Source: Candidatus Thorarchaeota archaeon
Lineage (GTDB): Archaea; Asgardarchaeota; Thorarchaeia; Thorarchaeales; Thorarchaeaceae
Direction of reading: 5' to 3'
DNA: 64,000 nt
Assembly (NCBI GenBank): GCA_019057475.1
Contig: DXJO01000041.1
Coordinates: forward strand, 96,001 to 160,000
This document shows positions 29,536-43,979 of the stretch, piece by piece. Position 1 is the stretch's first letter; every line of letters starts with the position of its first letter. The notes below the pieces were generated by a model. It was not told the origin of the DNA. It worked only from the letters and a program-made list of their open reading frames with translations, and did not search any database. Both the position numbers and the translations under genes were made by a program.

Positions 29536-29586
29536 GGGCAATAGGCCATGCGCCTGCTGCCCACTGCAACTTCTTTTTTCATTTTT
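29536..29586 (+). terminator. Hairpin plus T-tract after the ribosomal operon
   Basis: GGGCA...TGCCC stem followed by ttcttttttcattttt. Confidence 0.5.
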
Positions 29587-29929: not shown

Positions 29930-29995
29930 ACACTATCGGTTATTATCGATCATGCTGATGAGCTTAATTCAGAAATATCGAAGTTCATCGGTTAA
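29675..29995 (+). pseudogene. Truncated HDAC-family gene fused to the C-terminal tail of an alpha/beta hydrolase
   Basis: First ~85 aa nearly identical to 43725..44516; then VIIDHADELNSEISKFIG, resembling hydrolase ends such as FVIIEKYEEFNNEVMNFI (38438 ORF). Confidence 0.85.
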
Positions 29996-30004
29996 AATAC
30001 AGAT

Positions 30005-30433
30005 CTAGAGTGACATAATCTTGATGAGGGCTTCACCTTCAATGACAACTTCTTGGTTCTGATTTGTACATAAGGTCTTCAAAGTGACTCGTTGCTTCTC
30101 ATCGTTAAGAGAAGCTACCTCGACCCTAGCAGTTATTGTGTCACCAATTCTGACTGGCCCCATGAAATTCATACTCTGTCCTAAATATATCGTCCCGGGA
30201 CCGGGTAATTTCATGCCGATGGCAGCACTGATGAACGAAGCAGTGAGCAGTCCATGAGCAATTCGTCCATTAAACATCGTAGTCTTAGCCCATTCTTCAT
30301 CGAAGTGCAATGGATTGTAATCTCCACTAAGGTCTCCGAATGTCTGAATATCCTCCTCTGTGATAGTATGTGTTACCTCTGCAAATTGTCCAATGTGAAG
30401 ATCAGAATATTTTGTCGCTTTTATTTCATTCAC
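30005..30433 (-). CDS. MaoC-family (R)-specific enoyl-CoA hydratase
   Basis: F...SGDYNPLH.D...A....F.GRIAHG, LPGPGTIY..Q...F..PV.IGD; start at GTG 30433. Confidence 0.92.
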   Translation of the reverse strand: MNEIKATKYSDLHIGQFAEVTHTITEEDIQTFGDLSGDYNPLHFDEEWAKTTMFNGRIAHGLLTASFISAAIGMKLPGPGTIYLGQSMNFMGPVRIGDTITARVEVASLNDEKQRVTLKTLCTNQNQEVVIEGEALIKIMSL

Positions 30434-31451
30434 CTTTCCACATTCCCCATTTGATTGTAATCGCATTCCATGACCAGCCAATCCCAGCAGCGGTCAAAAC
30501 AACAATGTTCCCATCCTTTATCTTTCCATCCTTTAGACCTTCTTCAACTGACACAATCGAATCGTTTTGACCCATATGTCCCCATTCATCGAAATATGTT
30601 GCTTGATTATATGGATGAACACCTAGTTCATTTGCTACGAACTCAAAGGCACTTCTCTTCATTCTGATGAGCCCAAGATAGTCAATATTCTTTCGAGTAT
30701 ATCCACTCTTCTCTAATGATTCATCTACGACTTTCAAGAAATTGGTCATTGATAGTCTATCAAGACGGTCTTTCAACCCTGGAGGATCAGTGACATCCAA
30801 GTACTGCATGCGTTTCTCAATCGCCTCACATGTGATAGGAATGACAGTGCCACCTGCAGGTACATAGACATCTTCTGAAAATTGGCCATCTGTGATGACG
30901 CTTCCCTCTAGGATGACATTTTGTGGATAATCATTACGAAGAATCATGGCGACTCCACTGGCAGCTAAATCATGCATGAATCGTGTCCGGATATTCGAGT
31001 AGTCTATGAGATCACAGTTCCTGTATCCACTGCCAATTAGAACCCGTTTGTATCCTTGGGTTTCCATTAAAGACTTGGCAATGATCATGGCAACAACAAT
31101 TGTGCCGCATCTCTGGTTGACATCAAACGCCCAAGCTTTTGTTGCACCCACCTCGTTTTGGAACTTGATGGCATAGGTTTGCATAGGATGCTCTGCGTAA
31201 ACCTCGCCAGCCCAAATCACTAAGTCAATATCCTTTGCAGGATCTAGCCCCGCTCGTTCTATAGCAATCTTTGCAGCCTTCACGCCCATTGCCACAGTGT
31301 GATCATCTGGACCAGGCACAGCCTTACTCTTCATACCCATCTTCGTTTCAATTATCTCTGCTGGAGTTCCAGATTGTTCAGATATGTATTGAGCAGTATG
31401 CCTCTCAGGAGGTATATAGGTGCCAATCGCTTCAATTCCAATCTTTCTCAT
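30426..31451 (-). CDS. 3-oxoacyl-ACP synthase III (FabH/KASIII)-like enzyme 1, non-canonical active site
   Basis: IGTYIP, AFDVNQRCG catalytic Cys, LIRMKRS, WGHMGQND, VLTAAGIGWSW. Confidence 0.88.
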   Translation of the reverse strand: MRKIGIEAIGTYIPPERHTAQYISEQSGTPAEIIETKMGMKSKAVPGPDDHTVAMGVKAAKIAIERAGLDPAKDIDLVIWAGEVYAEHPMQTYAIKFQNEVGATKAWAFDVNQRCGTIVVAMIIAKSLMETQGYKRVLIGSGYRNCDLIDYSNIRTRFMHDLAASGVAMILRNDYPQNVILEGSVITDGQFSEDVYVPAGGTVIPITCEAIEKRMQYLDVTDPPGLKDRLDRLSMTNFLKVVDESLEKSGYTRKNIDYLGLIRMKRSAFEFVANELGVHPYNQATYFDEWGHMGQNDSIVSVEEGLKDGKIKDGNIVVLTAAGIGWSWNAITIKWGMWKGE

Positions 31452-32983
31452 TTCGCATCCTCCAACTCTCTTTTCAGAATTTTGCCTGTTGCGCTTTTGG
31501 GTAGGTTTCCACGAAATTCGTAATGCTTAGGAATCTTATAACTTGCAAGTTTATCATCCATATACTGTCTTATTTCGTCCTCTGCTAGTGATTCTCCATC
31601 CTTCAAGACAATGAACACCTTTCCGACTTCTCCCCACTTTTCATGTGGCACTCCAATTACAGCAGCCTCAAGTATTGCAGGGTGCTTGTATAGTACATCT
31701 TCAATCTCTGAGGGAAATACATTTTCTCCCCCTGAAATGAACATATCTTTCTTGCGACCAACTATATAGTAGAACCCATCACTATCACGCATGACGAGGT
31801 CTCCTGTATGCACCCATCCATCAGATTCAATGACTTTTGCTGACTCTTCAGGTTCCTCCCAATAACCACTGAATGTATGAGGTCCTCTCAACATCAACTC
31901 ACCTACCTCCTCATCTGACAGCGTTACATTGTCATCATCAACTATCTTCATATCACAGTGGAATGCAGGAAAACCAACAGATGTTGGTCTTTCCTTAACA
32001 GCATCATCAGGTAAGTAGAAATTATTAGGTCCTACTTCAGTGAGTCCATACCCCATTTTTAGAATCTTACCTCTCTCCCAGTATTTTTCCATTATCGCAA
32101 CAGGACATGGAGCACCTCCACTGATGAACGATCTAACATGTTCAAAGTTTGTCTTCTTGAAATTCGATGATTGAGATATCATGTTAAACACGGTAGGGAC
32201 GCCAATCACGATTGTGCATCTCTCGCTCTCAACTACTCTCAGTGTTTCTTCAGGATCAAAGTCGCCCATGATTATACTTAATGCTCCAAGATGATAGAAT
32301 GGTATGAGAAGTACATTGATTCCTCCTGTATGAAAGAGTGGAAAGAGTAGTGGTTGAATATCATCTGGTCTAAGTCCCCATGAAACAATCGTATTAACTG
32401 AGTTCCAGAATACCAATCTGTGTGATAGAACAGCACCTTTGGGTAGGCCTGTAGTTCCGCCTGTGAAGACGATCAAGAAAGGATCATCCATTGTGATTGC
32501 TGGTCGTTCTACTGCACTGGAGGATTTTCTGGTCATGAGCGAATAAATATCGGGGTCAGTATCAAACATCTTATTTCCCATGACGACTACAAGCTGTTTT
32601 TCAAGGAGCGGACGGATTTTCCCAAACTGGATTCTCAAATTGGGGTCATAGAATACTATAGAGGGGTTTGTCTTTTTCAAAAGGTATTCAGTTTCGGGTG
32701 TGGTAAGCCGAATGTTAAACGGAGTCAGAATGGCTCCTATCTTTCCACAAGCAAAGAGGATGTCAAGAAATTCGAACCTGTTCTTAGAGTAGATGCCTAC
32801 TCGGTTTCCCTTTTGTACTCCTGAATCAAGTAATAATCTTGCTACTTGATTCGCTCGTTTATCCATTTCTTCGAATGTGTATCTCTTATTCTGGATGTTG
32901 TCAACTATTGCTTCCTTTTTTGGAGTCAAGAGCGCTCTTCTTCCAGTCCAATCTCCTATCCAAGACCAATCTTTCAGGTTCAT
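31448..32983 (-). CDS. Acyl-CoA synthetase (AMP-forming, FadD/MenE-like) 1
   Basis: FTGGTTGLPKG, GYGLTE, TGDL, GRKKDMFISGGENV, KSATGKI. Confidence 0.93.
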   Translation of the reverse strand: MNLKDWSWIGDWTGRRALLTPKKEAIVDNIQNKRYTFEEMDKRANQVARLLLDSGVQKGNRVGIYSKNRFEFLDILFACGKIGAILTPFNIRLTTPETEYLLKKTNPSIVFYDPNLRIQFGKIRPLLEKQLVVVMGNKMFDTDPDIYSLMTRKSSSAVERPAITMDDPFLIVFTGGTTGLPKGAVLSHRLVFWNSVNTIVSWGLRPDDIQPLLFPLFHTGGINVLLIPFYHLGALSIIMGDFDPEETLRVVESERCTIVIGVPTVFNMISQSSNFKKTNFEHVRSFISGGAPCPVAIMEKYWERGKILKMGYGLTEVGPNNFYLPDDAVKERPTSVGFPAFHCDMKIVDDDNVTLSDEEVGELMLRGPHTFSGYWEEPEESAKVIESDGWVHTGDLVMRDSDGFYYIVGRKKDMFISGGENVFPSEIEDVLYKHPAILEAAVIGVPHEKWGEVGKVFIVLKDGESLAEDEIRQYMDDKLASYKIPKHYEFRGNLPKSATGKILKRELEDAK

Positions 32984-33345
32984 TGTTCAATCTCTTTTGA
33001 TTCAGAATGAAAACATTCTCAAGTATTAGTCTTACTGAAGATAGAGTTACTATTAGACACTTATTACTTTGAAAATCTATTAGAGTCTTGCATAAGAGAA
33101 CTATCTGATTGACTCTTTGTTCCATATCCTCGAATGCGTATCTTGCAAGAATGTCACCTCTCCGCCTATTCCTCTCCTTAGAATCAATGGTGTCTTTCAT
33201 TTCATTCTCCCGAGGTGCTTTACTATTTGTTCCAGATTTGCATTAAGAGGCAAAATCTGTCCAAAAGACATATTATTGGCTGAAATCAAACTCCTTAAGG
33301 ATAACCAACCTTTGATGTATCATATCAGTTCAGGAGGAAGTTGAA

Positions 33346-34140
33346 TTGTCCTCAACGAATGAGTTCATCCTTAGCACAAGTGGGTTAACCAAGAATTTTG
33401 ATGGTCTAATTGCCGTTGATGATGTAAGTCTAGATGTCGAAAGAGGTTCGATAAAATCAATCATCGGCCCGAATGGTTCAGGCAAAACTACTTTTTTTAA
33501 TCTCATTACAGGAGCCCTCCCTCCTTCGTCTGGAAAGATATATTTCGAAGGTCAAGATATAACTCGATTTTCAATGCATCAACGTACACGACAAGGTATA
33601 TCACGATCGTATCAGATCACGAATATTTTCCCATATCAGACAACATTTGAAAATATACGGTTGGCAGCTCAGGGCTGTAGTGGTGCAAAAGTAAATTTCT
33701 TTGGAATGTTAAAGAAAGCAGGCTCATTTAGCGAGTTTCATGAGAAAGTAATTGATATAGCAACACTTGTGGGTCTTAATCCTGCGAGACTCTATGTCCC
33801 AGCCGCTTTGATCCCACATGCCGAACAAAGAAAACTTGAAATCGCGATGGCCCTCGCTACCGAGCCGAAACTCCTCTTACTTGACGAACCTGCTGCTGGA
33901 ATATCAATAGAAGAGATACCAGATGTTATTGATGCTATTTTGCGGGTCAAAGAATCCTATGGGGATCAACTAACGCTATTAGTAGTTGAACATAAAATGG
34001 ACATTGTTATGAAACTCAGTGAGGAGATTGTTGTTCTTTCAGAAGGAAAAATGATTGCAAAAGGTTCTCCAAAGGAGATCCAAGAAAATGAACAAGTATT
34101 GACAGCTTATCTCGGTGGTACAGATGAAAAACTTGCTTGA
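33346..34140 (+). CDS. livG: Liv-type ABC transporter ATPase
   Basis: IIGPNGSGKTT, RSYQITNIF, LLLLDEPAAG, VEHKM. Confidence 0.9.
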   Translation: MSSTNEFILSTSGLTKNFDGLIAVDDVSLDVERGSIKSIIGPNGSGKTTFFNLITGALPPSSGKIYFEGQDITRFSMHQRTRQGISRSYQITNIFPYQTTFENIRLAAQGCSGAKVNFFGMLKKAGSFSEFHEKVIDIATLVGLNPARLYVPAALIPHAEQRKLEIAMALATEPKLLLLDEPAAGISIEEIPDVIDAILRVKESYGDQLTLLVVEHKMDIVMKLSEEIVVLSEGKMIAKGSPKEIQENEQVLTAYLGGTDEKLA

Positions 34141-34843
34141 AATACAAAATGCTCACGTATACATTGGTTCCTTCTACATTCTGCAAGGAATCTCACTAGT
34201 CGTGCCTAAAGGAGAAGTTACTCTATTACTGGGTAGGAACGGCTCTGGAAAAACTACTACAATGAAATCAATACTCGGTATATATCCACCAAAAGAAGGA
34301 AAGATTGTCTTCAAGGGTGAGGAGATATCCAATCTCCCTACCCATAAGATAGTCAACAAAGGCATGGGATATGTCCCTGATACAAGAAGGATATTTGGAA
34401 CACTGACGGTTGAACAGAATCTAGTTGTGTCAATGAGGAAGGGAAGCTCGCGAGAAGACATGCAAAAACGATTGGATCTAATCTTCGATTTGTTTCCTGA
34501 CATGAAAGGGTTTCTGAAACAGAGAGCAGGTACTCTATCAGGTGGTCAACAGCAAATGCTAGCTGTTGCCCGTGCATTGATGAATGAAAATGATTTGTTG
34601 CTCATCGACGAACCTACAGAGGGCTTGAGTCCCCTTTTAGCTAAGAACCTTATCGACTCTCTTGACAGACTAAAGGAATTTGCTACTATCTTACTGGTTG
34701 AACAGAACTTTCGGACAGTGTCTAAGCTGGGTGATAACTACTACATTTTCGATAATGGAAAAATCGTTCATGAGGGCACCAACATGTCTGAGTTAATAGA
34801 CGACAAGGCACTTGTTGCACAATACTTGGGGGTAAGCATTTAA
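34124..34843 (+). CDS. livF: Liv-type ABC transporter ATPase
   Basis: LGRNGSGKTT, AGTLSGGQQQML, DEPTEGLSP, LVEQN. Confidence 0.9.
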   Translation: MKNLLEIQNAHVYIGSFYILQGISLVVPKGEVTLLLGRNGSGKTTTMKSILGIYPPKEGKIVFKGEEISNLPTHKIVNKGMGYVPDTRRIFGTLTVEQNLVVSMRKGSSREDMQKRLDLIFDLFPDMKGFLKQRAGTLSGGQQQMLAVARALMNENDLLLIDEPTEGLSPLLAKNLIDSLDRLKEFATILLVEQNFRTVSKLGDNYYIFDNGKIVHEGTNMSELIDDKALVAQYLGVSI

Positions 34844-35955
34844 TGACTATGCAAACAAAGAGATTCTCTCCTCGGGACTACTTGGAGGAAAACCCACAGG
34901 TTCGCAAATTGTTGAGGATTACAGTGGTGATTGCACTCATAATAATAGGGGGTCTATTGGTTTTAGCTGCGATAGACGTCTATACATGGAACGGATTCGT
35001 TGTAAGGGCTAGCAAATCACTAGTTAATGGTCTTGCACTCAGCATGTTGCTCTTCTTGATGGTCTCTGGTTTCTTCTTGATCTTTGGTCTATGCGACGTA
35101 ATCAATTTCGCGCACGGCGCGTTCTTTATGTTGGGAGGTTTCATGGGTTTCGTAATCTATCTCGGAACCGAGGCTGTTTTCCTAGACCCAGCCCTACCGT
35201 TCTATCTTATCTTCGGAGCTAATCAATTTGCCTTGTCAGTCACGGCCTTTATTGTAAGTGCCCTTGGAGCCGCAGCAGTTCTGGCTCTTATTGGTGGAGG
35301 AATAGAGTTCTTTACAATTCGGCGGCTTTACGGTAATCCTATCGCTCAGATACTGCTGACAGTTGGTTTTATGTTCGTTATCACTCAGATTGTCGAGATT
35401 ATCTGGGGGCCTTCACAGTTTTCCTATTTCATTATTTCCAATTCGCAAATAACCTACTTCTTCATTAGTGGTTTACTTGATTTTGGCGGAGGGCTGCAAT
35501 TTGCTGTTTACCGTATTTTCTTGATTTTTCTAGGGTTAGCAGTTGCTGGATTAATGTTTATAGGGTTCAGAAAGACACGTATCGGACTCCTGGTACAAGC
35601 AGGTATAGAAGATTCAGAGATGGTTGAAGCATTAGGGACTGATATCAGAAAATTGTTTACAATTGTATTTATGTTGGGTGCAGGTCTTGCGGGACTATCA
35701 GGGGCTGTCCTAGTCCCGTGGATTGGAGCAAACTCGGGTCATGGTCTCACATACCTCATATTCGCATTTGTCATAGTTGTCGTTGGAGGCGCCCATTATG
35801 GTCGCCTTGAAGGGACTTTCTTTGGTGCACTTATAGTCGGTCTATCAATTCAATTTACATCATATTTCATTCCATTTCTTGAGAACATTATTGTATTCAT
35901 AATTATGGCGATTATTCTGATAGTAAGACCAGGAGGATTAACGGGTCATGAATAA
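34843..35955 (+). CDS. livH: Liv-type ABC transporter permease
   Basis: VINFAHGAFFMLG, TRIGL.V.A, VVVGG, RPGGL.G. Confidence 0.9.
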   Translation: MTMQTKRFSPRDYLEENPQVRKLLRITVVIALIIIGGLLVLAAIDVYTWNGFVVRASKSLVNGLALSMLLFLMVSGFFLIFGLCDVINFAHGAFFMLGGFMGFVIYLGTEAVFLDPALPFYLIFGANQFALSVTAFIVSALGAAAVLALIGGGIEFFTIRRLYGNPIAQILLTVGFMFVITQIVEIIWGPSQFSYFIISNSQITYFFISGLLDFGGGLQFAVYRIFLIFLGLAVAGLMFIGFRKTRIGLLVQAGIEDSEMVEALGTDIRKLFTIVFMLGAGLAGLSGAVLVPWIGANSGHGLTYLIFAFVIVVVGGAHYGRLEGTFFGALIVGLSIQFTSYFIPFLENIIVFIIMAIILIVRPGGLTGHE

Positions 35956-37552
35956 TGAAAGAAATATCGTAAGGAGACTGAAAGTAATTATCCTTAGGAT
36001 ACCCTCCATGCTGTCGAACAATAGAGCAGTAATAGCTGTTCTTGCGTTTTTGTATCTACTCCCATTGGGTACAGCAGCAAGTACGTCCCCCGTTCGAGCT
36101 TTGCTCTTCCTCATTACTCAGATAATGGTTTTTAGTCTTCTTGCAATGTCTTTTGATCTACAATTAGGACGTGCATCGCTTCTGAATTTCGGACATGTTG
36201 CACTTTTTGGTGTGGGCGCCTATTTCATGGCATTTACTTTGGACGCAGATTTTCTCCCCCCGCCCTTTAATCTCATAGCTGCGATTCCATTTCCCCTTAC
36301 ATTAGTTGTGGCAATGATGATTGGCGGTGGTCTCGGGCTCATAATGGGACTGACGACGAGCCGCATGAGAGGCACAGCGTTTGCATTTATTGGTTTAGCG
36401 ATAGCGATGTTCATCTATAATTTCTTCGCTGAAAATCCTGGTCTTTCTGGGGGAGAAACAGGACTGAGGGTACCAACTCCTGATATCATTAGGACTGCTC
36501 CTTTCTATCTGCTCTTTGTCACACTTGCATTTGTATTCCTTGCCGCATTTATTGGAATGGTCGTCCTTTACATAAAGAAGCGGACAGAACCTATTGGTCT
36601 AATCCTGGTCACTCCAGTTATGGTAGCCTTTACAGGTGTCCTATTGATTTTTGGGACAAATGTCTTTGGACCTGTGTTAGTATTCATTGCCTTTCTTGGG
36701 ATGATTTTCCTCTTCTGGATTGAACGGAGCAAATCCATTAGTGACCCTCTTCAATATTCTGAGAACCGAACATTCACAGGGGAAGTAAAACCAACTAACA
36801 AACTGACTACCTACGTATTACCTTTCATTATCATAATAATCGTCCTAATTGGCGTGGTTGTTAGTTTTGGTTCAAACATTGCTCAAATGGTAACACTGTG
36901 GATTGAAGATAGCTCCACATTTTACTTCACTATTCCAGTGCAATTCTATCTAGTATTGACTTGTCTTGTGATAACCTATGTTTTCATAAAACGATTAATT
37001 GCATCACCATTCGGGAGAATGGTTACTGCGGTCGCTCAAAATGAAGAACGGGCTGAAGCTTTAGGCTACAATAGTTATCGTGCCAAAATAGTTGTGCTTG
37101 TTATAAGTGGGGCAATTGCCGGCCTTGCAGGGGCGTTGTATGCACCATTCATTAGAATTATTGATCCGCATACCACATTAGGAGTCGAAATAACAATCAA
37201 TGCAATGTTGTACACCATTATCGGAGGAATTGGTACACTACTGGGTCCAATACTCGGAACAGGAGTAGTGGTGTACTCTGAGCTAAATCTAGTGGACTTC
37301 ATAAGGGAGGGGCTAGGCCTACCTGGACAATTATGGTTGGTCGGGCTAGGAGTGATGTACATATTCATTGTCCTATTCATGCCTCTTGGTATCGTTGGTT
37401 CTATTGGACGAAGGGCTGGCTCTATCAAAGATAGATTACGACAATTAAAATTAGGTCAATTTGAGTTTGGAATAAAGGATACCGATTATTGGGTCTTTGG
37501 ATTACTGGGTACAATAGGTTTGTTCCTATTGTTGTTGATCGTCAGTCTTTAG
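35948..37552 (+). CDS. livM: Liv-type ABC transporter permease with large membrane insertion
   Basis: LNFGHVALFGVGAY, GGETGL, SPFGR...AVAQNE.RAEALG, IIGGIGTL.GP. Confidence 0.88.
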   Translation: MNNERNIVRRLKVIILRIPSMLSNNRAVIAVLAFLYLLPLGTAASTSPVRALLFLITQIMVFSLLAMSFDLQLGRASLLNFGHVALFGVGAYFMAFTLDADFLPPPFNLIAAIPFPLTLVVAMMIGGGLGLIMGLTTSRMRGTAFAFIGLAIAMFIYNFFAENPGLSGGETGLRVPTPDIIRTAPFYLLFVTLAFVFLAAFIGMVVLYIKKRTEPIGLILVTPVMVAFTGVLLIFGTNVFGPVLVFIAFLGMIFLFWIERSKSISDPLQYSENRTFTGEVKPTNKLTTYVLPFIIIIIVLIGVVVSFGSNIAQMVTLWIEDSSTFYFTIPVQFYLVLTCLVITYVFIKRLIASPFGRMVTAVAQNEERAEALGYNSYRAKIVVLVISGAIAGLAGALYAPFIRIIDPHTTLGVEITINAMLYTIIGGIGTLLGPILGTGVVVYSELNLVDFIREGLGLPGQLWLVGLGVMYIFIVLFMPLGIVGSIGRRAGSIKDRLRQLKLGQFEFGIKDTDYWVFGLLGTIGLFLLLLIVSL

Positions 37553-37619
37553 GATGGAGTTGATGGTATGATCAAGATTTCATCAAGAAAGAAGGTTGAA
37601 CGAAAAGTGGGTGATTGTC

Positions 37620-38438
37620 TTGCCATATGAAACTATCGGAGACATCGATATCTATTACGAGATTCATGGACCACCTGAGGCTCCACCACTTGTGTTGATA
37701 GGAGGATGGGCTAGTTATCGTTGGATATGGTTTCGACAAATTCCTGCCTTCAAAGAAAGATACAGATGTGTTGTGTTTGATAATCGTGGAGCAGGAAGAA
37801 GTTCCAAGCCTGACCATCCATATACTATGGAAATGTTCGCTGATGATGTTGTTGGTCTGATAGAAGCATTGGATATCGAAAACGCACATATCATAGGGAT
37901 TTCAATGGGTGGATTCATTGCGCAGCAAATTGCGATTTCCTATCCCGAAAAGGTTCGAAGCTTGATCATTGTTTCTAGCAGCTTTGGAGGGCCTAATTCT
38001 ATTCCTATGGATGATAAAACAATGGCCATGTTAATTGCTCTTCCAACTGAAACAATATCAAAAGAGCAAGCGAGGGAGATGCGCTATAAAGCTACTTTCA
38101 GTACACAATTCCTCCAAGAAAACAGGTTAGTGATAGATCAGATAGATGAATGGGCTGAACGGCATCCTACGCCGGTATATGCACAAGTGCATCAAAGCTC
38201 AGCAGCAAAATCGTTTAATGCTGAATCGGAAGTGAAACAAATATCTACACCGACACTTATCTTACACGGAGATAGTGACCTTTGTTTTCCACCTAAGAAT
38301 GCAGAACTGCTAGCTAATAGCATATCCACATCGAAATTGAAAATTATAGAGGGCGCATCACATTTTGTCATCATTGAAAAGTATGAAGAGTTCAATAATG
38401 AGGTAATGAATTTTATAGACGAAGTGGAAAAAGGATGA
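37620..38438 (+). CDS. Alpha/beta hydrolase
   Basis: FDNRGAGRS, GISMGG nucleophile elbow, HGDSD, ASH. Confidence 0.9.
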   Translation: MPYETIGDIDIYYEIHGPPEAPPLVLIGGWASYRWIWFRQIPAFKERYRCVVFDNRGAGRSSKPDHPYTMEMFADDVVGLIEALDIENAHIIGISMGGFIAQQIAISYPEKVRSLIIVSSSFGGPNSIPMDDKTMAMLIALPTETISKEQAREMRYKATFSTQFLQENRLVIDQIDEWAERHPTPVYAQVHQSSAAKSFNAESEVKQISTPTLILHGDSDLCFPPKNAELLANSISTSKLKIIEGASHFVIIEKYEEFNNEVMNFIDEVEKG

Positions 38439-38511
38439 CTTATTCCTGAGCCCAAAAGGAAGGTGATTTGGCAAGGAAAAGAATGTTGGGCCCGATAAGC
38501 AAACTTAGAGG

Positions 38512-39531
38512 ATGATGTTTATGGTTCGTTCAGCTGTGGTCACAGGTCTGGGAATGTATGTTCCTGAAAAGATGTTGACAAATGAAGAAATTGAGCTAGT
38601 GCTTGATCGTCCTGGAACAGCAGATTGGTTGGTGGAGAATGTTGGCATCAGACAACGTCACGTCATGGCTGAAGATGAGGTGACATCTGATCTTGCTCTT
38701 CATGCTGGTCGTGAAGCATTAGAAAATGCAGGATTGGAAGCAGACGATCTCGACCTAATCATTTTGAGTACTGACACACCGGACTATCTATCTCCAGCAA
38801 CATCAGTAGTGGTTCAGCACAAACTCGGTGCGAAGAATGCAGGTACTTTTGACGTCAATTGTGCTTGTGCAGGTCTGGTTACTTCTTTGGACATAGCCTC
38901 CCGCTATATTAGAACAGATTTTGACATCAATTCGGTTTTGGTGATTGGGGCATACGGAATGACCAAATTTGTTGATTGGACAGACCATTATACTTGTACT
39001 TTGTTTGCGGATGCTGCAGGAGCAATGGTACTGCAGGCCAGTGAGGATAGAGAAGGATTCATTGCCTCTGAATTAATAGCGGATGGCTCATTCCATGACC
39101 ATTTGGGGATATTTGTCGGAGGAACGGCAGAACCCCCAACAGTTGAAGCGATCCAGAATCACAGGCACCATCTAGCTTTTCGCAAACGCTTTCCGGCCGA
39201 TACAAACCTTCAACATTGGCCAACTATGACAAGAGATTGTGTATCAAAGGCTAATCTGTCCATCGAGGATATCGACTGGATTTTCTTCACTCAGGTGAAC
39301 ATACGAACTATTGAGGCGGTAATGAAGGAACTAGGTATGCCACTTGAGAAGACTCACAATGTTCTGGATAAATGGGGGTACACGGGTTCAGCTTGTATTG
39401 CATTGGCGATGTACGATGCCATTGAACAAGGGAAACTTCCACCTCCCGGACAGGGAAACGGCGAGAATATAGCACTCTGCTCATCCGGGGGAGGTTTCAA
39501 CATGGCTGCCGCCGTTCTAAGATGGTGGTAA
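38512..39531 (+). CDS. 3-oxoacyl-ACP synthase III (FabH/KASIII)-like enzyme 2, non-canonical active site
   Basis: GLGMYVPE..LTN, GIRQRH, FDVNCACAG, FFTQVN, WGYTGSAC, SSGGG. Confidence 0.88.
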   Translation: MMFMVRSAVVTGLGMYVPEKMLTNEEIELVLDRPGTADWLVENVGIRQRHVMAEDEVTSDLALHAGREALENAGLEADDLDLIILSTDTPDYLSPATSVVVQHKLGAKNAGTFDVNCACAGLVTSLDIASRYIRTDFDINSVLVIGAYGMTKFVDWTDHYTCTLFADAAGAMVLQASEDREGFIASELIADGSFHDHLGIFVGGTAEPPTVEAIQNHRHHLAFRKRFPADTNLQHWPTMTRDCVSKANLSIEDIDWIFFTQVNIRTIEAVMKELGMPLEKTHNVLDKWGYTGSACIALAMYDAIEQGKLPPPGQGNGENIALCSSGGGFNMAAAVLRWW

Positions 39532-39617
39532 TGGATTTTTATTTTGGTTGTGGCTGATTACACAAGAAGCGATTATGCCTATTGAGCAAGAATAGAACTC
39601 ATATCGAGGGGATACTA

Positions 39618-41168
39618 ATGGTTAATCAGTTTGACTATCTATCCAAGAGAGATATCTTCTCTCCCGAGGCTGAAGCTCTAGTTGATGTAGAAACCGGGAA
39701 AAGATATTCGTATAGAGCGTTCAACAAACGCGCGAATAAGGTTGCCAACTTCCTTCAACAAGTAGTTGAATTTCAAAAGGGGGATCGTTTATGCATTCTT
39801 GCTCAAAATAGCTTGGAATACTGGGAAGCATTTTTCGGATGTCAGAAGTGCGGAGGTATTTTCAGTCCACTCAACTGGCGTTTGGTCGCCCGAGAATTAG
39901 CAGGTTTGGTCAATGATCTTAATCCCTCCGTGTTACTCTATGATTCAGACTTAGCTAATGTTGCATCAGAGTTGAAGCAAGAAGTCACGGTTGATCACTG
40001 GATCTCATTGGATTCAAAAGGAACAGAAGTGGAAGGTTCTCTATGCTATGAGGAAGTTATGAATAAAGCAGCATCCAGTCCATCTAATGCTGTAGATCTC
40101 TCTTATGAAGATCCAATGGGCATCGTGTTTACCGGGGGGACAACGGGACTACCAAAAGGTGCAATGATTACTTACAATCAAGTTGCATTCAATACTCTTA
40201 GTACCATTAGGGACATCCTTCCAGGTGATGTCTACATAAATCATCTACCCCTATTCCATGTCGGTGGACTCTATGTGTATGCCATTCCACTCTTCATTTT
40301 GGGCGGAAAAGTAGTCCAGATGAAGAGATGGGATCTTGACACCTTAGTGGGTGTGATCAACAAGGAAAATCCCAACTTCTTCTTTGCCGTGCCCACGCAA
40401 TACCGTATGCTGATGAACCATCCCGATTTTCGATCAATTGACTTCAGTAACGTTCGGTTCTTGACTTCTGGAGGTGAACCCTTACCTCTGGACATCATCA
40501 AGACATACAGGGAGGCACATGGTGTCAAATTCAAACAAGGGTTTGGAATGACAGAAGTTGGACCAGGATGTTTTGCTCTTGACCCATGGGACGCTGAGCG
40601 AAAGATTGGCAGCATTGGTACTCCTAACTTCTTCATTGATGCAAAAGTAGTTGATCCTGAAACTGGAAAGGATTGTGATGCAAATGAGGTGGGTGAACTT
40701 CAATTTAGAGGGCCCACGGTGACTATCGGTTACTGGAATCGTCCAGAGTTGAATAAGACACTCCTAGATGAAGGCGGCTGGTTTCGGACAGGTGATATGG
40801 TGTATTTTGATGAGGAAGGGTATTACTACGTAGTTGATCGAGTGAAGGACATGTTCATCTCTGGGGGTGAGAATATCTATCCAAGAGAGATTGAGAAGCT
40901 CTTAGAAGAACACCCAAAGATTGCTCAAGTACAGGTGATTGGAGTACCTGATTCCAAATGGGGGGAGGTAGGACGCGCCATTGTTGTCTTGAAGGAAGGA
41001 CAAGAAGCCTCGGAGGAAGAGATAATCGACTATTGTGGAAGGAAATTGGCCAGATTTAAGATTCCAAAATCAGTACGCTTCGCAGAAAGTTTCACACAAT
41101 ATATCTCAGGGGCCGGAAAGATTCTGAAGCGAAGATTAAGGGAAGATTTTGGCCAAGAGGAGAAATGA
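39618..41168 (+). CDS. Acyl-CoA synthetase (AMP-forming) 2
   Basis: FTGGTTGLPKG, QGFGMTE, TGDM, DRVKDMFISGGENIYP, GKILKR. Confidence 0.93.
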   Translation: MVNQFDYLSKRDIFSPEAEALVDVETGKRYSYRAFNKRANKVANFLQQVVEFQKGDRLCILAQNSLEYWEAFFGCQKCGGIFSPLNWRLVARELAGLVNDLNPSVLLYDSDLANVASELKQEVTVDHWISLDSKGTEVEGSLCYEEVMNKAASSPSNAVDLSYEDPMGIVFTGGTTGLPKGAMITYNQVAFNTLSTIRDILPGDVYINHLPLFHVGGLYVYAIPLFILGGKVVQMKRWDLDTLVGVINKENPNFFFAVPTQYRMLMNHPDFRSIDFSNVRFLTSGGEPLPLDIIKTYREAHGVKFKQGFGMTEVGPGCFALDPWDAERKIGSIGTPNFFIDAKVVDPETGKDCDANEVGELQFRGPTVTIGYWNRPELNKTLLDEGGWFRTGDMVYFDEEGYYYVVDRVKDMFISGGENIYPREIEKLLEEHPKIAQVQVIGVPDSKWGEVGRAIVVLKEGQEASEEEIIDYCGRKLARFKIPKSVRFAESFTQYISGAGKILKRRLREDFGQEEK

Positions 41169-41977
41169 CAATGCCAGTCAGCAAAGTAAATGGAATAGAC
41201 ATCTATTATGAAATCCATGGTGAAGGTGAACCAGTTATCTTTGGAAATGGTGTTTTTTCTAATACATTAGGTTGGATTAATCAAGTCCCAGTTTTCTCCA
41301 AAGAGTATCAAGTCATTCTGTACGATATGCGTGGGCAAGGACAGAGCGACAAGCCAGAATCTCCCTATTCCTTTGATATCCATGCCGAAGATCAAAAGGC
41401 ACTTCTTGAAGACATTGGCATTTCCAAAGTTCATCATGTTGGAATTAGCTACGGAGCCGAACTCGGTCTGGTCTTTGCGCTGAAGTATCCTGAAATGTTG
41501 AAGAGCCTCGTTGCTTGTAGTGCCGTTTCGCATGTGGGTCCCTTGCTCAATGAGATGTGTCAATTATGGAGATATGCCTGTGAGCTTGGAGATCCTGAGT
41601 TATTTTATCACGCTACTGTCCCCTTAAATTTTGGAGAAACTTTCATTCGAGAAAATACCGCTATTTTGGAACAGGCGAAGGTTCGTTATACTCAACTAGA
41701 TTATCCACCACTTGTGAGATTATGTGATGCTTTCCTCATGCTTAATATCACAGACCAACTATCAAAGATCAAAACACCCACCTGTGTTATCGGGGGTGAG
41801 AAGGACATCGTAAAACCGGTTTATCCGTATTCGCGTATGATTCATGATAAATTGCCTAATTCGGAAATGGTCATTGTTCGTGATTCGGGTCATGCTGTAA
41901 CATTCGAAAAACCTGAAGAGTTCAACAGCATAGTTCTAGGGTTCTTACACAAACAATCCCAGAAACACACTCTTTAG
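41165..41977 (+). CDS. Alpha/beta hydrolase
   Basis: YDMRGQGQS, GISYG, GEKD, SGH. Confidence 0.9.
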   Translation: MTMPVSKVNGIDIYYEIHGEGEPVIFGNGVFSNTLGWINQVPVFSKEYQVILYDMRGQGQSDKPESPYSFDIHAEDQKALLEDIGISKVHHVGISYGAELGLVFALKYPEMLKSLVACSAVSHVGPLLNEMCQLWRYACELGDPELFYHATVPLNFGETFIRENTAILEQAKVRYTQLDYPPLVRLCDAFLMLNITDQLSKIKTPTCVIGGEKDIVKPVYPYSRMIHDKLPNSEMVIVRDSGHAVTFEKPEEFNSIVLGFLHKQSQKHTL

Positions 41978-42051
41978 AGAAAAGCAGTTCTTCGTTTCTT
42001 CTTAATTTGCTAAGAGATAAATAGTAGCAAACCCACCATAATGGTTACGCA

Positions 42052-42070
42052 TAGAACATTCTATGTTCTA
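42052..42070. promoter_or_regulatory. Perfect 8-bp inverted repeat, candidate operator upstream of the substrate-binding protein gene
   Basis: TAGAACAT-tct-ATGTTCTA, 50 nt upstream of ATG 42120. Confidence 0.5.
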
Positions 42071-42119
42071 ACTCTAACAGTATTCTCGCAAAAGAAGTAC
42101 TGTTTAGGGAGGATAGAAG

Positions 42120-43574
42120 ATGAAAAAAATAAGAACGATATCTCTATCTCTTTCGTTGCTATTATTAGTATCCATTTTCCTACCTTGTTTCTTTGTTAAA
42201 CCAGCTGCTGCACAAACAACTCCAATTAAGATTGGAATTTTCACCCCCGAAACAGCAGGTCTGACAGCTTATGGACCTTGGACAAAACAAGGCTTCGAGT
42301 TGGGAATGGTGTATGCAACCACGATGATGGGATATGACAATGAGAACATGACCGAAGCAGGTCGGCCCTATGAACTTCATTATTATGATACGAAAGGTTC
42401 AGTGGTCGATGCAGCAACCAAAGCAGTAGAAGCTATCGAAACCGATGGTATTGACATTCTCGTCGGAGCAACTTCTAGTGCAGTTGCCGCAGCAATAGCA
42501 CCTATTGCCGAAGATTACGAGAAGCTATATTTCATATCTCCAGCTGCTGCTTCTTCGCTAACTGCAGAGGACTTTAATCCGTACATTTTCCGTATCGCCA
42601 GAAATAACTGGCATGATGCCTATGCAGGCGTCACGTATGCTATGGATGAAAATTACCTCAACTATTCGAGATTTGCCTTTCTTGCTGCTGATTATTCCTT
42701 TGGATATAGTGGCGTTCAATCAATGAAAAGTGTAATAGAGGACAGGGGAGGATCGGTGCACAGTATCCAGTATGCATCTCTTTGGGATACTGATTTCTCT
42801 CAAGAGATTGATGCTCTCAAAGCTGCTGATGCAATATGGGGTATTGAGTATTTGTTCATCATTTGGGCTGGAAACTTCGCTTATCTATACAATGATTTAG
42901 CAACATACAATCTTGCAGCTGACATGGAAATTGCTGGAGCATGTATTGATATCCTTTCCATGAACTCCATTGAAGCGAGTTTGACTGCTCCAGGTGCGAC
43001 CTACATCAATTCCACTGGGCTCTGTCTATATGGTTATGAACTACCAAACAATGCGGTTAATGACTGGATGGTGGATCAACATGTCACCAGAAACATTAAG
43101 CCAAATGGTCAATATGGACTCCAATATAAAGTTCCAGAGCTTTTCACTGCAAGTGGGTTTGCTACGGCACAATTCTTGGTAGATGTGACGAATGCTATCC
43201 CGGACCTTAATACTGGTTTGATGATCAACTATCTCGAAAGTGGTGTTACCATCAACACCCCGAAGGGACCAACATACTTGAGACCAGAGGATCATCAAGG
43301 GCTTGCGGAGATGTATATCGCGAAAGCTGTGAATGATACCCGACCTGGGTCTGAAACAGAAAATCTCATCATTGCCGAATTGGTTGAGATCCTCGACCGT
43401 AACGCGGTTGCACCTCCAATTGCGTCTGGTTATACACCAGGTGGATTTGCACCAACAACAACAACAACAACAACAGCACCACCCCCAGCATTTGATTACT
43501 TGACTATCACAGTGATTGGTGGACTTGGAGTAGTAATAATCGTGCTCATTGTGCTTTTAGTGCGGAAAAAGTAA
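42120..43574 (+). CDS. Liv-type ABC substrate-binding protein with Thr-rich linker and C-terminal TM anchor
   Basis: Signal peptide, IKIGI, DILVGATSSAVAAA, YIFR, TPKG...RPEDHQ, poly-Thr, TM plus RKK. Confidence 0.88.
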   Translation: MKKIRTISLSLSLLLLVSIFLPCFFVKPAAAQTTPIKIGIFTPETAGLTAYGPWTKQGFELGMVYATTMMGYDNENMTEAGRPYELHYYDTKGSVVDAATKAVEAIETDGIDILVGATSSAVAAAIAPIAEDYEKLYFISPAAASSLTAEDFNPYIFRIARNNWHDAYAGVTYAMDENYLNYSRFAFLAADYSFGYSGVQSMKSVIEDRGGSVHSIQYASLWDTDFSQEIDALKAADAIWGIEYLFIIWAGNFAYLYNDLATYNLAADMEIAGACIDILSMNSIEASLTAPGATYINSTGLCLYGYELPNNAVNDWMVDQHVTRNIKPNGQYGLQYKVPELFTASGFATAQFLVDVTNAIPDLNTGLMINYLESGVTINTPKGPTYLRPEDHQGLAEMYIAKAVNDTRPGSETENLIIAELVEILDRNAVAPPIASGYTPGGFAPTTTTTTTAPPPAFDYLTITVIGGLGVVIIVLIVLLVRKK

Positions 43575-43586
43575 TGGTACAACTTG

Positions 43587-43636
43587 AAGGTTCAAGCTGG
43601 TTTAACTTGAACCTTTACTCCTTTTTTTTATTTTTT
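43587..43636 (+). terminator. Hairpin plus T-tract ending the island operon
   Basis: AAGGTTCAAG/CTTGAACCTT 10-bp stem followed by long T runs. Confidence 0.65.
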
Positions 43637-43979
43637 GTCAAGTTGATGTGGCTGAAAAGCTATAACACGCTCTGAGTACATTCATAGACAGGAAGAAGCT
43701 GATGCCCGTCTATCCGGAAAAGGAATGGCCAAGATGAAGATAGTGTATCATCCTTTGATGAGTGAAAGCTATGACCGTACACCTGCAGGAGCCCCTGGAA
43801 GGCTGGATACCTCTGTGGAAATCCTGAGCAAACACGCAGATTATGAGTTTGTGGAGGCAAGGCCTGCAACCGAAGAAGAGCTCAATCGAGCTCATGCTCT
43901 GAGTCACATCGAGAGGGTGAAGCGGGACTATGACTCAACAAGGGAGAACCTATTGTATCAGGTAGCGACCCTGGCCGCA
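43622..43979 (+). repeat. Right copy of ~360 bp diverged direct repeat
   Basis: Colinear with 29572-29929. Confidence 0.93.

What the first reader, a model, noticed from the sequence alone, without database searches (positions are those of the whole stretch)
30005..43574. ACP-independent dual-KASIII / dual acyl-CoA ligase / Liv-importer cluster in an archaeon: candidate undescribed acyl-metabolite system
Seen: two divergent transcription units encode ligase-KASIII-MaoC on the minus strand and livGFHM-hydrolase-KASIII-ligase-hydrolase-SBP on the plus strand. There is no ACP, FabD, FabG or thiolase in the cluster. Known: archaea build isoprenoid lipids and lack the FAS-II context in which FabH normally acts. 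CoA ligase plus FabH-like proteins plus a thioesterase is the logic of small-molecule pathways such as Pseudomonas PqsABCDE and Ole hydrocarbon synthesis. Inference: the cluster imports a hydrophobic acid or ester, activates two different acids and joins or transfers them, making or recycling a lipid-like or signalling molecule. From memory, similar gene sets occur uncharacterised in some bacteria, so the novelty may lie in its function and archaeal occurrence.
Basis: partly seen in the sequence, partly recalled or inferred. Interest (0 to 1): 0.82.

Follow-up and report, generated by a model that had tools for sequence, protein, structure and literature searches.

The report
Asgard acid-uptake cluster, rewired FabH-likes
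A 14-kb gene cassette in a Thorarchaeota (Asgard) genome joins a nutrient importer to two CoA ligases, two esterases, a hydratase and two FabH-like enzymes that lack the residues needed for fatty-acid synthesis. The same cassette is common in anaerobic Bacillota, so it is most likely a bacteria-derived uptake-and-breakdown pathway of unknown substrate, not an archaeal lipid or signal factory.

Summary
All 12 genes are present as described, in a Thorarchaeota genome with no ACP or FabD.

- **Active sites.** Neither KASIII has the FabH Cys-His-Asn triad. KAS1 (NCBIfam PRK06840 family) reads Cys-Arg-His plus an invariant Asp. KAS2 reads Cys-Thr-Tyr plus a second invariant Cys. Decarboxylative FabH chemistry is therefore unlikely.
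- **Not archaeal-specific.** The cluster is conserved across Thor and Heimdall lineages. The same two-module divergent layout occurs in Natranaerobius, and related operons occur in Anaerobranca, Proteinivorax, Anaerosporomusa and other Bacillota.
- **Bacterial versions look catabolic.** A butyryl-CoA:acetate-type CoA-transferase usually replaces the ligase. Its partners include Liv, SSF or MFS importers, sigma-54 activators, chemoreceptors, FabG-type reductases, PhaJ-type hydratases and sometimes thiolases.
- **Origin.** In a quick tree, Asgard KAS1 nests inside bacterial diversity.
- **Mobility.** In this genome the cassette is a low-GC 14.05-kb insertion between the ribosomal P1 gene and a deacetylase gene, bracketed by a ~350-bp duplication. 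Sister genomes show the empty site.

My best reading (0.55) is a bacteria-derived, mobile uptake and CoA-activation pathway for a short or medium carboxylate or its ester. An (R)-3-hydroxyalkanoate-type substrate is possible. The substrate and the KASIII chemistry remain unknown. The scan noted this cluster before on other Asgard DNA.

The parts
29574..29995 (+). Left copy of the ~350-bp direct repeat: duplicated promoter and first ~90 codons of the deacetylase gene, read as a truncated chimeric ORF (29675-29995, 106 aa). It marks the left island border.
   Evidence: Alignment with 43610-44100 is ~90% identical over ~350 nt. It is the only long repeat in 28.5-45.5 kb, with 14,050 nt spacing. 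The ORF has no Pfam hit as a whole.
30005..30481 (-). PhaJ-type (R)-specific enoyl-CoA hydratase (MaoC). The start is uncertain; a likely internal start lies near 30433.
   Evidence: PF01575, 92.7 bits. Best PDB matches are PhaJ 5cpg (1.9e-34) and 1iq6 (1e-29). The hydratase motif (SGDYNPLH) is intact.
30426..31451 (-). KAS1: KASIII-fold enzyme of the uncharacterised PRK06840 family. Its active site reads Cys115 / Arg263 / His292 / Asp297 instead of Cys-His-Asn.
   Evidence: NF005308, 412.5 bits against a cut-off of 315. Alignment to E. coli FabH. Family motifs. AF2 model pLDDT 96, nearest to FabH with TM 0.84-0.93 and 20-23% identity.
31448..32983 (-). LIG1: acyl-CoA ligase (ANL family), translationally coupled to KAS1.
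   Evidence: PF00501 and PF13193. Nearest NCBIfam models are PRK06839 and PRK06187, both below cut-off. Best PDB matches are 8wev/8weu and FadD13. The TGGTTGLPKG motif and C-terminal Lys motif are intact.
32984..33345 (.). AT-rich divergent intergenic region of 362 bp, presumably holding the promoters of both transcription units. The cluster contains no regulator gene.
   Evidence: Sequence read. The ORF at 32901-33200 has no Pfam hit.
33346..34843 (+). livG (33346-34140) and livF (34115-34843): the two ATPases of the ABC importer.
   Evidence: PF00005 and PF12399.
34843..37552 (+). livH (34843-35955) and a long livM (35948-37552, 534 aa): the two permeases. They score closer to UrtB/UrtC models than to LivH/LivM models.
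   Evidence: PF02653. UrtB 126 bits and UrtC 112 bits against LivH 40 and LivM 51 bits, all below cut-off. Multiple TM segments.
37596..38438 (+). ABH1: cytoplasmic serine alpha/beta hydrolase (esterase or lactonase type).
   Evidence: PF00561, 128.7 bits. The best NCBIfam hit is PcaD-like, 144 bits, below cut-off. Best PDB match is esterase Est1 6eb3 (1e-43). GISMG nucleophile elbow present and no signal peptide.
38512..39531 (+). KAS2: FabH-like enzyme reading Cys119 / Thr260 / Tyr290 plus invariant Asp88 and Cys295. The likely start is 38521.
   Evidence: Alignment to five FabH structures. Family invariants. The same motifs occur in Bacillota homologues. AF2 pLDDT 90.6.
39582..41168 (+). 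LIG2: second acyl-CoA ligase, 39% identical to LIG1.
41165..41977 (+). ABH2: second cytoplasmic serine alpha/beta hydrolase, 30% identical to ABH1.
   Evidence: GISYG motif present and no signal peptide.
42120..43574 (+). Substrate-binding protein (Peripla_BP_6) with a signal peptide, a Thr/Pro linker and a C-terminal membrane anchor.
   Evidence: PF13458, 134.8 bits. Best PDB matches are R. palustris 3nnd/3n0x (2e-38). The N- and C-terminal hydrophobic segments were found.
43624..44516 (+). Right copy of the direct repeat (43624 to about 43980), running into the intact deacetylase gene (43725-44516). It marks the right island border.
   Evidence: In 23 of 24 other Thor-family genomes this gene lies next to ribosomal P1.

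Best explanation
This is a self-contained, horizontally acquired, mobile cassette that takes up a small organic acid or its ester or lactone and turns it into CoA thioesters for the cell's own beta-oxidation or fermentation. It has two modules.

**Module B** (livGFHM, ABH1, KAS2, LIG2, ABH2, SBP). An anchored extracellular binding protein and an ABC importer bring the compound in. The cytoplasmic serine hydrolases open ester or lactone bonds, and LIG2 makes a CoA thioester.

**Module A** (LIG1, KAS1, MaoC). It activates a second acid or the same product. The PhaJ-type hydratase interconverts (R)-3-hydroxyacyl-CoA and enoyl-CoA.

**The two KASIII-fold proteins** are not FabH. They keep the acyl-accepting Cys but have replaced the decarboxylation pair. 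Each has gained another invariant acid/base candidate on the same loop (Asp297 in KAS1, Cys295 in KAS2). I therefore infer non-decarboxylative, thiolase-like chemistry on CoA substrates: either C-C cleavage or condensation of a beta-oxoacyl-CoA, or acyl transfer between an ester and CoA.

**Substrate.** The best guess, at about 0.25, is an (R)-3-hydroxyalkanoate or beta-oxo acid of roughly C4-C6, or its oligomeric esters.

**Shown:** gene content, motif changes, conservation, bacterial counterparts and the insertion. **Inferred:** direction (catabolic), substrate class and the chemistry of KAS1 and KAS2.
For: **Importer.** There is an SBP with a signal peptide and membrane anchor plus four ABC components, while all the enzymes are cytoplasmic.

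**Accessory enzymes.** All have intact catalytic motifs.

**KASIII active sites.** KAS2 has Thr and Tyr at FabH His244 and Asn274. KAS1 has Arg and His there. The family invariants are H292/D297 for KAS1 and D88/C119/Y290/C295 for KAS2.

**No ACP route.** No ACP or FabD was found in a 96%-complete genome.

**Neighbourhoods of KAS1-family genes in 20 Bacillota loci**:
- a butyryl-CoA:acetate-type CoA-transferase in 16, or a LIG1-like ligase in 3
- Liv ABC genes in 14
- an alpha/beta hydrolase in 11
- a FabG-type SDR in 9
- KAS2 in 7
- a sigma-54 activator in 7
- MaoC in 5
- a thiolase in 3
- chemoreceptors in 3
- in single loci, an SSF symporter with its small subunit, or an NHL/SGL lactonase-like propeller

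**Same architecture in a cultured bacterium.** Natranaerobius thermophilus has the same divergent two-module layout, with two hydrolases.

**(R)-stereochemistry and PHA link.** MaoC is PhaJ-like, and its alternates in bacteria are FabG/PhaB-like reductases. These are the two known ways to connect (R)-3-hydroxyacyl-CoA to central metabolism (established knowledge). A deltaproteobacterial KAS1 sits with a PhaC-like synthase, PhaR and PHB-depolymerase-type genes.

**Downstream capacity.** The genome has 3-hydroxyacyl-CoA and acyl-CoA dehydrogenases elsewhere to take up the products.

**Origin and mobility.** In a quick tree Asgard KAS1 nests inside bacterial sequences. The island has lower GC, a flanking duplication, and an empty site in sister genomes.
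Against: - No member of either KASIII family has been characterised, so the direction of the chemistry is inferred only from gene context.
- The deltaproteobacterial locus (KAS1, FabG-like reductase and PhaC-like synthase) fits synthesis of 3-ketoacyl-CoA as well as breakdown.
- True thiolases sit beside KAS1 in three bacterial operons. KAS1 is therefore probably not simply a thiolase substitute.
- The Asgard version uses ATP-consuming ligases rather than CoA-transferases and carries no regulator, so bacterial regulation cues do not transfer to it.
- The permeases score nearer urea/amide (Urt) models, and a PepF peptidase is adjacent in some Bacillota. An amino-acid- or amide-derived substrate is therefore possible.
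- The genome has no PHB depolymerase.
- The binding-protein ligand is unknown.
Confidence: 0.55

Rival explanations
1. CoA-based (ACP-free) condensing pathway. KAS1 acts as a 3-ketoacyl-CoA synthase on ligase-activated primers. FabG-type reductases or PhaJ-type hydratases then process the product, to elongate acids or to supply (R)-3-hydroxyacyl-CoA for storage polyester or lipid.
For: Across genomes KAS1 is found with a ketoreductase (FabG-type, above the FabG cut-off), a dehydratase (MaoC), an NMO/FabK-like gene (L041), and in one deltaproteobacterium a PhaC-like synthase and PhaR. Most of the KAS1 family keeps a Cys-His-His arrangement like KAS I/II.
Against: The Thor copies have Arg at the first His position, and some Bacillota copies have Lys. 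The genome has no PhaC-III, PlsY or ACP. High-affinity importers, CoA-transferases, sigma-54 activators and chemoreceptors are typical of nutrient use rather than biosynthesis. No enoyl reductase lies in the window.
Confidence: 0.15
2. One reading: a Pqs- or Ole-like small-molecule pathway in which two activated acids are joined head-to-head by the two KASIII proteins and released by a hydrolase, giving a signal or lipid-like product.
For: The parts list (AMP-ligase family, KASIII fold, alpha/beta hydrolase, and an SDR in some relatives) parallels OleC/OleA/OleB/OleD and PqsA/PqsD/PqsBC by my own knowledge of those systems. Both KAS families carry an acidic residue near the position of the catalytic Glu of HMG-CoA synthase.
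Against: Neither protein is close to OleA. OleA is absent from the KAS1 hits at E <= 1e-5 and appears only as a partial N-terminal match for KAS2. There is no OleD and no PqsE-type gene in the window. KAS1 and KAS2 occur independently of each other. The cassette carries an importer, not an exporter, and the bacterial context looks catabolic.
Confidence: 0.1
3. The logic is the same (catabolic), but the substrate is nitrogenous: an amino acid, a beta- or gamma-amino acid, a short amide or a small peptide ester. It is imported by a Liv/Urt-type system, trimmed by the S33-type hydrolases and fermented through CoA esters.
For: The transporter belongs to the Liv/Urt superfamily, with the permeases scoring nearest UrtB and UrtC. 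The hydrolases also hit proline-iminopeptidase-type models. An M3 oligopeptidase lies next to KAS2 in Proteinivorax- and Anaerobranca-like loci. Several hosts named are, to my knowledge, protein- or amino-acid-fermenting anaerobes. That is outside knowledge and was not tested here.
Against: There is no aminotransferase, deaminase or amidase in the window. In some bacteria the ABC system is replaced by monocarboxylate-type SSF symporters with a small subunit, or by MFS carriers. MaoC is a typical PhaJ hydratase.
Confidence: 0.15
4. KAS1 and KAS2 form an obligate PqsBC-like heterodimer in which one subunit is catalytic and the other structural.
For: Both have degenerate triads, and they are co-located here. 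In seven Bacillota loci both occur together, five of them as a KAS1-CoA-transferase-KAS2 operon. KAS2 paralogues also occur in tandem.
Against: KAS1 is found without KAS2 in most Asgard families searched and in many Bacillota. Both keep the nucleophilic Cys and their own invariant residues. This suggests that each is catalytic.
Confidence: 0.1

Closest known systems
FabH (beta-ketoacyl-ACP synthase III, FAS-II initiation)
   Same: Same fold and the same nucleophilic Cys position. The KAS1 model superposes on FabH structures with TM 0.84-0.93. KAS2 is about 35% identical to FabH by HMMER, with E values down to 7e-54. In the quick tree the KAS2 clade is sister to canonical FabH representatives.
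   Different: His244 and Asn274 are replaced (KAS2 Thr/Tyr; KAS1 Arg/His). There are extra invariant Asp or Cys residues. The genome has no ACP or FabD. The genes sit in an importer/CoA-activation operon rather than a fab cluster.
PRK06840 / NF005308 '3-oxoacyl-ACP synthase' family (uncharacterised)
   Same: KAS1 scores 412.5 bits against a cut-off of 315. It shares the family signature GHxGxxD and the nearly invariant Lys of the HMKR motif.
   Different: The Thor-family copies have Arg where most of the family has His (LIRMKR against LLHMKR). No function is known for any member.
E. coli atoDAEB and pcaIJF-type operons (CoA-transferase, thiolase and transporter under sigma-54 or other activators)
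   Same: The operon logic in the Bacillota relatives matches: importer, CoA-transferase, a thiolase-superfamily enzyme and a sigma-54 activator. This is a resemblance in how it works, based on my own knowledge of ato and pca.
   Different: The thiolase-superfamily member is KASIII-fold, not a thiolase. The CoA-transferase belongs to a different family (PF02550/PF13336). The Asgard version uses AMP-forming ligases.
OleABCD / lipstatin-type head-to-head condensation
   Same: It combines a KASIII-like enzyme, an ANL-family enzyme and an alpha/beta hydrolase, plus an SDR in some relatives.
   Different: No specific similarity to OleA. The OleA catalytic set is not conserved. There is no OleD in the window. 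An importer is present.
PqsABCDE (alkylquinolone synthesis)
   Same: It has a CoA ligase, two kinds of FabH-like proteins that include a non-canonical one, and a hydrolytic step.
   Different: PqsD keeps Cys-His-Asn. PqsE is a metallo-beta-lactamase-fold enzyme, absent here. KAS1 and KAS2 are not obligate partners. No anthranilate-type ligase signal stands out.
PhaJ and PHA mobilisation enzymes
   Same: MaoC is a close PhaJ relative. The hydrolases give weak hits to scl-PHA depolymerase models. A bacterial KAS1 lies in a PHA locus.
   Different: No PHA synthase or PHB depolymerase was found in this genome with the models tried (PhaC-III, Esterase_PHB). The link is contextual only.

Membership tests
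FabH / KASIII (decarboxylating condensing enzyme) | Cys-His-Asn catalytic triad (E. coli C112/H244/N274) | tested here: not met
   KAS2 reads Cys/Thr/Tyr. KAS1 reads Cys/Arg/His. The substitutions are conserved in each family.
FabH / KASIII (decarboxylating condensing enzyme) | Thiolase-type alpha-beta-alpha-beta-alpha fold with ACP_syn_III domains | tested here: met
   PF08545 and PF08541 match in both proteins. AF2 models have pLDDT 96 and 90.6. The KAS1 model matches FabH with TM 0.84-0.93.
FabH / KASIII (decarboxylating condensing enzyme) | ACP and malonyl-CoA:ACP transacylase partners in the genome | tested here: not met
   No PF00550 and no PF00698 match in the 96%-complete genome.
FabH / KASIII (decarboxylating condensing enzyme) | Score above the curated FabH model cut-offs | tested here: inconclusive
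   KAS2 passes the broad subfamily model NF006829 (268.5 against 249) but fails TIGR00747 (241.6 against 292.1). KAS1 fails both.
PRK06840 (NF005308) family | Score above the curated cut-off, plus the family signature GHxGxxD and the HMKR motif | tested here: met
   KAS1 scores 412.5 against 315. G291, H292 and D297 are invariant and K265 is nearly invariant. The His of HMKR is Arg in the Thor copies.
Thiolase (acetyl-CoA C-acyltransferase) | Thiolase_N and Thiolase_C domains with the Cys/His/Cys catalytic set | tested here: not met
   The only match is a sub-threshold Thiolase_N hit for KAS2 (21 bits against 26.4). The resemblance is functional only: a second invariant Cys in KAS2 and a GH motif in KAS1.
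OleABCD | OleA-type thiolase, OleD reductase, OleC and OleB | tested here: not met
   OleA structures match only the N-terminal third of KAS2 (about 1e-16) and are not among the KAS1 hits. There is no SDR in the window.
PqsABCDE | PqsD with Cys-His-Asn, a PqsBC heterodimer and the PqsE thioesterase | tested here: not met
   No canonical triad. No metallo-beta-lactamase-fold gene in the window. KAS1 and KAS2 occur independently.
PhaJ-type (R)-specific enoyl-CoA hydratase | MaoC hot-dog domain with the hydratase-2 motif (Asp/His) | tested here: met
   PF01575. PDB 5cpg and 1iq6 are the best matches. The motif SGDYNPLH is present.
Binding-protein-dependent Liv/Urt-type ABC importer | Two ATPases, two BPD_transp_2 permeases and a secreted Peripla_BP_6 protein | tested here: met
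   The signal peptide and anchor were found. Substrate specificity was not testable.
ANL acyl-CoA ligase | AMP-binding core motifs and the C-terminal catalytic Lys | tested here: met
   TGGTTGLPKG, TGD and GKILK motifs in both ligases. Both fall just below the PRK06187 subfamily cut-off. Substrate was not testable.

The most novel reading that the evidence does not exclude
The cassette is an ACP-free acyl-building system. Imported acids are activated by the two ligases and then condensed or elongated by the two rewired KASIII enzymes on CoA. This would give Asgard archaea a route to fatty-acyl or lipid-like products, which bears on proposals that Loki- and Thorarchaeota may make ester-linked or chimeric lipids (PMC6737245).
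Probability: 0.1. Interest if true: 0.85.

Novelty: new variant of a known kind. Interest (0 to 1): 0.55.

Why it matters
Two sizeable KASIII-fold families have rewired active sites. They are embedded in importer and CoA-activation operons of many anaerobic Bacillota and several Asgard lineages, and none has an assigned reaction. Automatic annotation calls them 3-oxoacyl-ACP synthases. In Asgard genomes this can be misread as evidence for fatty-acid synthesis, a point that bears on debates about archaeal and eukaryotic lipids. Showing what they do (thiolase-like cleavage, ester-to-CoA acyl transfer or condensation) would add a new reaction type to a well-studied fold. It would also define a nutrient used by sediment Asgard archaea. 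The empty-site evidence documents a whole metabolic cassette moving within Thorarchaeota without a recognisable integrase.

Tried and rejected
- **Canonical FabH or FAS.** Rejected on the triad and on the absence of ACP and FabD.
- **Recent bacterial transfer into this genome, suggested by the low GC.** Refined rather than accepted. The cluster is old within Asgard, but its position here is a recent insertion.
- **An archaeal thiolase/HMG-CoA-synthase/DUF35-like complex.** The small ORFs next to KAS1 in Bacillota are hydrophobic symporter subunits, not DUF35. A conserved HMGCS-like Glu is only loosely conserved across the KAS1 family.
- **Structure search for a functional clue.** The KAS1 model simply matches FabH, BioZ and PqsD, which is uninformative.
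- **ESM Atlas.** It returned only generic KASIII clusters.
- **Literature searches.** Searches for the cluster, for KASIII in Asgard and for the PDB codes of the SBP relatives found nothing relevant.
- **Short metagenome contigs for distant KAS1 representatives.** They gave little context.
- **ARAGORN.** It found no tRNA in 27-48 kb, so a tRNA-targeted integration could not be supported.

Full report
**Observation**

- On the minus strand lie a MaoC hydratase (30005-30481), KASIII-1 (30426-31451) and an AMP-ligase (31448-32983).
- Across a 362-bp AT-rich spacer, the plus strand carries livG, livF, livH, a long livM, alpha/beta hydrolase-1, KASIII-2, a second AMP-ligase, alpha/beta hydrolase-2 and a Peripla_BP_6 binding protein (33346-43574).
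- No ACP, FabD, FabG or thiolase domain is present in the cluster.
- The host is an archaeon. L1, L10P and P1 ribosomal genes lie just upstream, and the closest homologues of KAS1 (80-97% identity) are all in Thorarchaeota MAGs.
- The genome is 3.34 Mb and 96% complete. It has no PP-binding (ACP) or Acyl_transf_1 (FabD) match, while the same searches found these in 10-11 control genomes.

**The two KASIII proteins are not FabH**

I aligned KAS2 to five FabH structures. It keeps the nucleophilic Cys (NCACAG), but has Thr at the His244 position (FTQVN against HQAN) and Tyr at the Asn274 position (GYTGSAC against GNTSAAS).

KAS1 keeps Cys (NQRCG). It reads LIRMKR in the His region and GHMGQND at the Asn position.

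Family-wide alignments show that these are family signatures, not accidents.
- **KAS2 family.** Asp88, Cys119, Thr260, Gln261, Asn263, Tyr290 and a second Cys295 are invariant from Asgard to Bacillota.
- **KAS1 family.** Gly291, His292 and Asp297 are invariant, and Cys115 and Lys265 are nearly so.
- **Variation within the KAS1 family.** Most members have His in an HMKR motif. The Thor family has Arg there and one Bacillota clade has Lys. A ligase-linked subclade has Ser instead of the nucleophilic Cys.

KAS1 belongs to NCBIfam NF005308 (PRK06840; 412.5 bits against a cut-off of 315). This model carries only a generic name, and ten diverse relatives match nothing more specific.

The AlphaFold models are confident (pLDDT 96 and 90.6). 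The KAS1 model superposes on FabH, BioZ and PqsD at TM about 0.85-0.92 but only 17-23% identity.

The position five residues after the former Asn carries an invariant Asp in KAS1 and an invariant Cys in KAS2. Thiolases use a second Cys as acid/base, and HMG-CoA synthase and OleA use a Glu. From this I infer non-decarboxylative chemistry. This is an inference from sequence and has not been shown.

**Conservation and modularity**

A tblastn survey of 31 Thorarchaeota loci shows the complete arrangement in at least 13 contigs. The LIG1-KAS1-MaoC triplet stands without the liv module next to it in several others. Heimdallarchaeota LC_3 has both modules.

Of 151 genomes sampled from the phylum, 40 carry KAS1 above the model cut-off. 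A KAS2-type second hit appears mainly in the Thor family. In other Asgard families the ligase and KAS1 remain adjacent, usually with an alpha/beta hydrolase. One such genome has KAS1 but no KAS2.

The cluster is therefore two separable modules:
- A: ligase, KAS1 and MaoC
- B: importer, hydrolase and KAS2, with a second ligase and hydrolase

**Bacterial counterparts**

KAS2-type proteins with the same Thr/Tyr/Cys signature occur in Anaerosporomusa, Anaerobranca, Proteinivorax, Sporosalibacterium, Serpentinicella, Natranaerobius, Treponema and uncultured Clostridia.

In Natranaerobius thermophilus and Anaerosporomusa subterranea the KAS2 gene follows SBP-livHMGF-hydrolase. In Anaerosporomusa a KAS1-family gene with a CoA-transferase and a second Liv system lies 14 kb upstream.

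NF005308 is above cut-off in 25 of 301 genomes of that phylum. I fetched 20 neighbourhoods and labelled them by BLASTP and Pfam. KAS1 sits beside:
- a butyryl-CoA:acetate-type CoA-transferase in 16, or a LIG1-like ligase in 3
- Liv ABC genes in 14
- alpha/beta hydrolases in 11
- FabG-type reductases in 9
- KAS2 in 7, five of them as a KAS1-CoA-transferase-KAS2 operon
- sigma-54 activators in 7
- MaoC in 5
- BTAD/STAND regulators in 4
- thiolases in 3
- chemoreceptors in 3

One locus has an SSF symporter with its small membrane subunit. Another has an NHL/SGL lactonase-like propeller in the hydrolase's place. On that basis N. thermophilus has the same divergent two-module layout as the window, including two hydrolases.

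A deltaproteobacterial KAS1 (63% identical) lies with a ligase, a FabG-like reductase, a PhaC-like synthase, PhaR and PHB-depolymerase-type genes.

**Origin and mobility**

A quick ML tree (SH-aLRT only; the careful search did not finish) gives three results:
- The KAS2 clade is sister to canonical FabH representatives.
- Asgard KAS2 is sister to Bacillota KAS2.
- Asgard KAS1 lies inside a Bacillota-rich bacterial radiation, with the deltaproteobacterial sequences nested among the Asgard ones.

This fits acquisition from bacteria. Rooting and sampling caveats apply.

In this genome the cluster has GC about 0.42 against about 0.49 in the flanks. It is bracketed by the only long repeat of the region, 29574-29873 against 43624-43923 at 90% identity and 14,050 nt apart. 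The repeat is the promoter and first ~90 codons of a deacetylase gene.

In 23 of 24 other Thor-family genomes, including three of the same genus, L10, P1 and this deacetylase gene lie together on the fetched ~3.8-kb stretches. Two of these have about 1.2 kb between P1 and the deacetylase gene. None carries the cluster at that site. The whole 14-kb cassette was therefore inserted here, with a ~350-bp duplication and no recognisable integrase.

**What it most likely does**

The binding protein has a signal peptide, a Thr/Pro linker and a C-terminal anchor. All the enzymes are cytoplasmic, and all have intact catalytic motifs. MaoC is a close PhaJ relative.

Together with the catabolic hallmarks of the bacterial operons, the best reading is uptake of a small carboxylate or its ester or lactone, followed by three steps:
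1. hydrolysis by the esterases
2. CoA activation
3. processing by the hydratase and the two rewired KASIII enzymes

The products would feed the dehydrogenases encoded elsewhere in the genome.

The alternation of PhaJ-type hydratases with FabG/PhaB-type reductases, the short-chain CoA-transferases, the monocarboxylate-type symporters and the PHA-locus homologue all point weakly to (R)-3-hydroxy or 3-oxo acids of short chain. This remains a guess, at about 0.25.

Several rivals cannot be excluded: a condensing (synthetic) role for KAS1, a nitrogenous substrate, a Pqs- or Ole-like product, and a KAS1/KAS2 heterodimer. They are scored in the rival list.

**Comparison with the known, and novelty**

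The proteins have the FabH fold but fail the defining triad and lack the ACP partner. They are not OleA, PqsD, PqsBC or thiolase members. In operon logic the system resembles ato- or pca-type acid-utilisation operons.

No paper describing the cluster was found. One paper notes that Loki- and Thorarchaeota carry bacterial-type lipid genes and that fatty-acid synthesis genes have been proposed (PMC6737245). This genome has no PlsY.

The scan had already noted the same cluster on other Asgard DNA and reached a similar nutrient-salvage reading. My evidence from Bacillota neighbourhoods and the empty site adds to that.

Noticed in passing
window 29574-29995 and 43624-44516: The 14.05-kb cluster is an insertion between the ribosomal P1 gene and a deacetylase gene. 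About 350 bp of the deacetylase promoter and 5' end are duplicated, leaving a truncated 106-aa chimeric ORF on the left. In 23 of 24 other Thor-family genomes L10, P1 and the deacetylase gene lie together without the cluster. No integrase or transposase is visible.
   Followed up: yes
window 30001-44000: GC content drops to about 0.40-0.44 inside the cluster, against about 0.49 on both sides.
   Followed up: partly
L037:1-17275 (deltaproteobacterial metagenome contig): A KAS1 homologue (63% identical) sits in a polyhydroxyalkanoate-type locus with a PhaC-like synthase (TIGR01836, 258 bits), PhaR, DUF3141/PHB_depo_C, Esterase_PHB, a FabG-like SDR, a ligase and a long SSF symporter.
   Followed up: partly
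L046:3816-7514 (Natranaerobius thermophilus): The livF gene of the homologous operon is cut short (116 aa) next to two IS110-family transposase genes. The importer of that copy may be inactivated.
   Followed up: no
L060, L061, L065 (Bacillota) and representatives P0246, P0257, P0260, P0261: A subclade of the KAS1 family has Ser instead of the nucleophilic Cys (motifs PLHTKR and GHMSALDP). In the three loci with context it is linked to a LIG1-like ligase rather than a CoA-transferase.
   Followed up: partly
L045:327-2319: Two KAS2-type paralogues, both with the Thr/Tyr/Cys signature, lie in tandem directly after an alpha/beta hydrolase gene. Several long contigs also carry two KAS2-type genes.
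   Followed up: no
window 35948-37552: The livM permease is unusually long (534 aa), with about 200 extra N-terminal residues containing additional hydrophobic segments. Heimdall LC_3 (510 aa) and one Bacillota locus (575 aa) share this.
   Followed up: no
I could not confirm or refute that note.
   Followed up: partly
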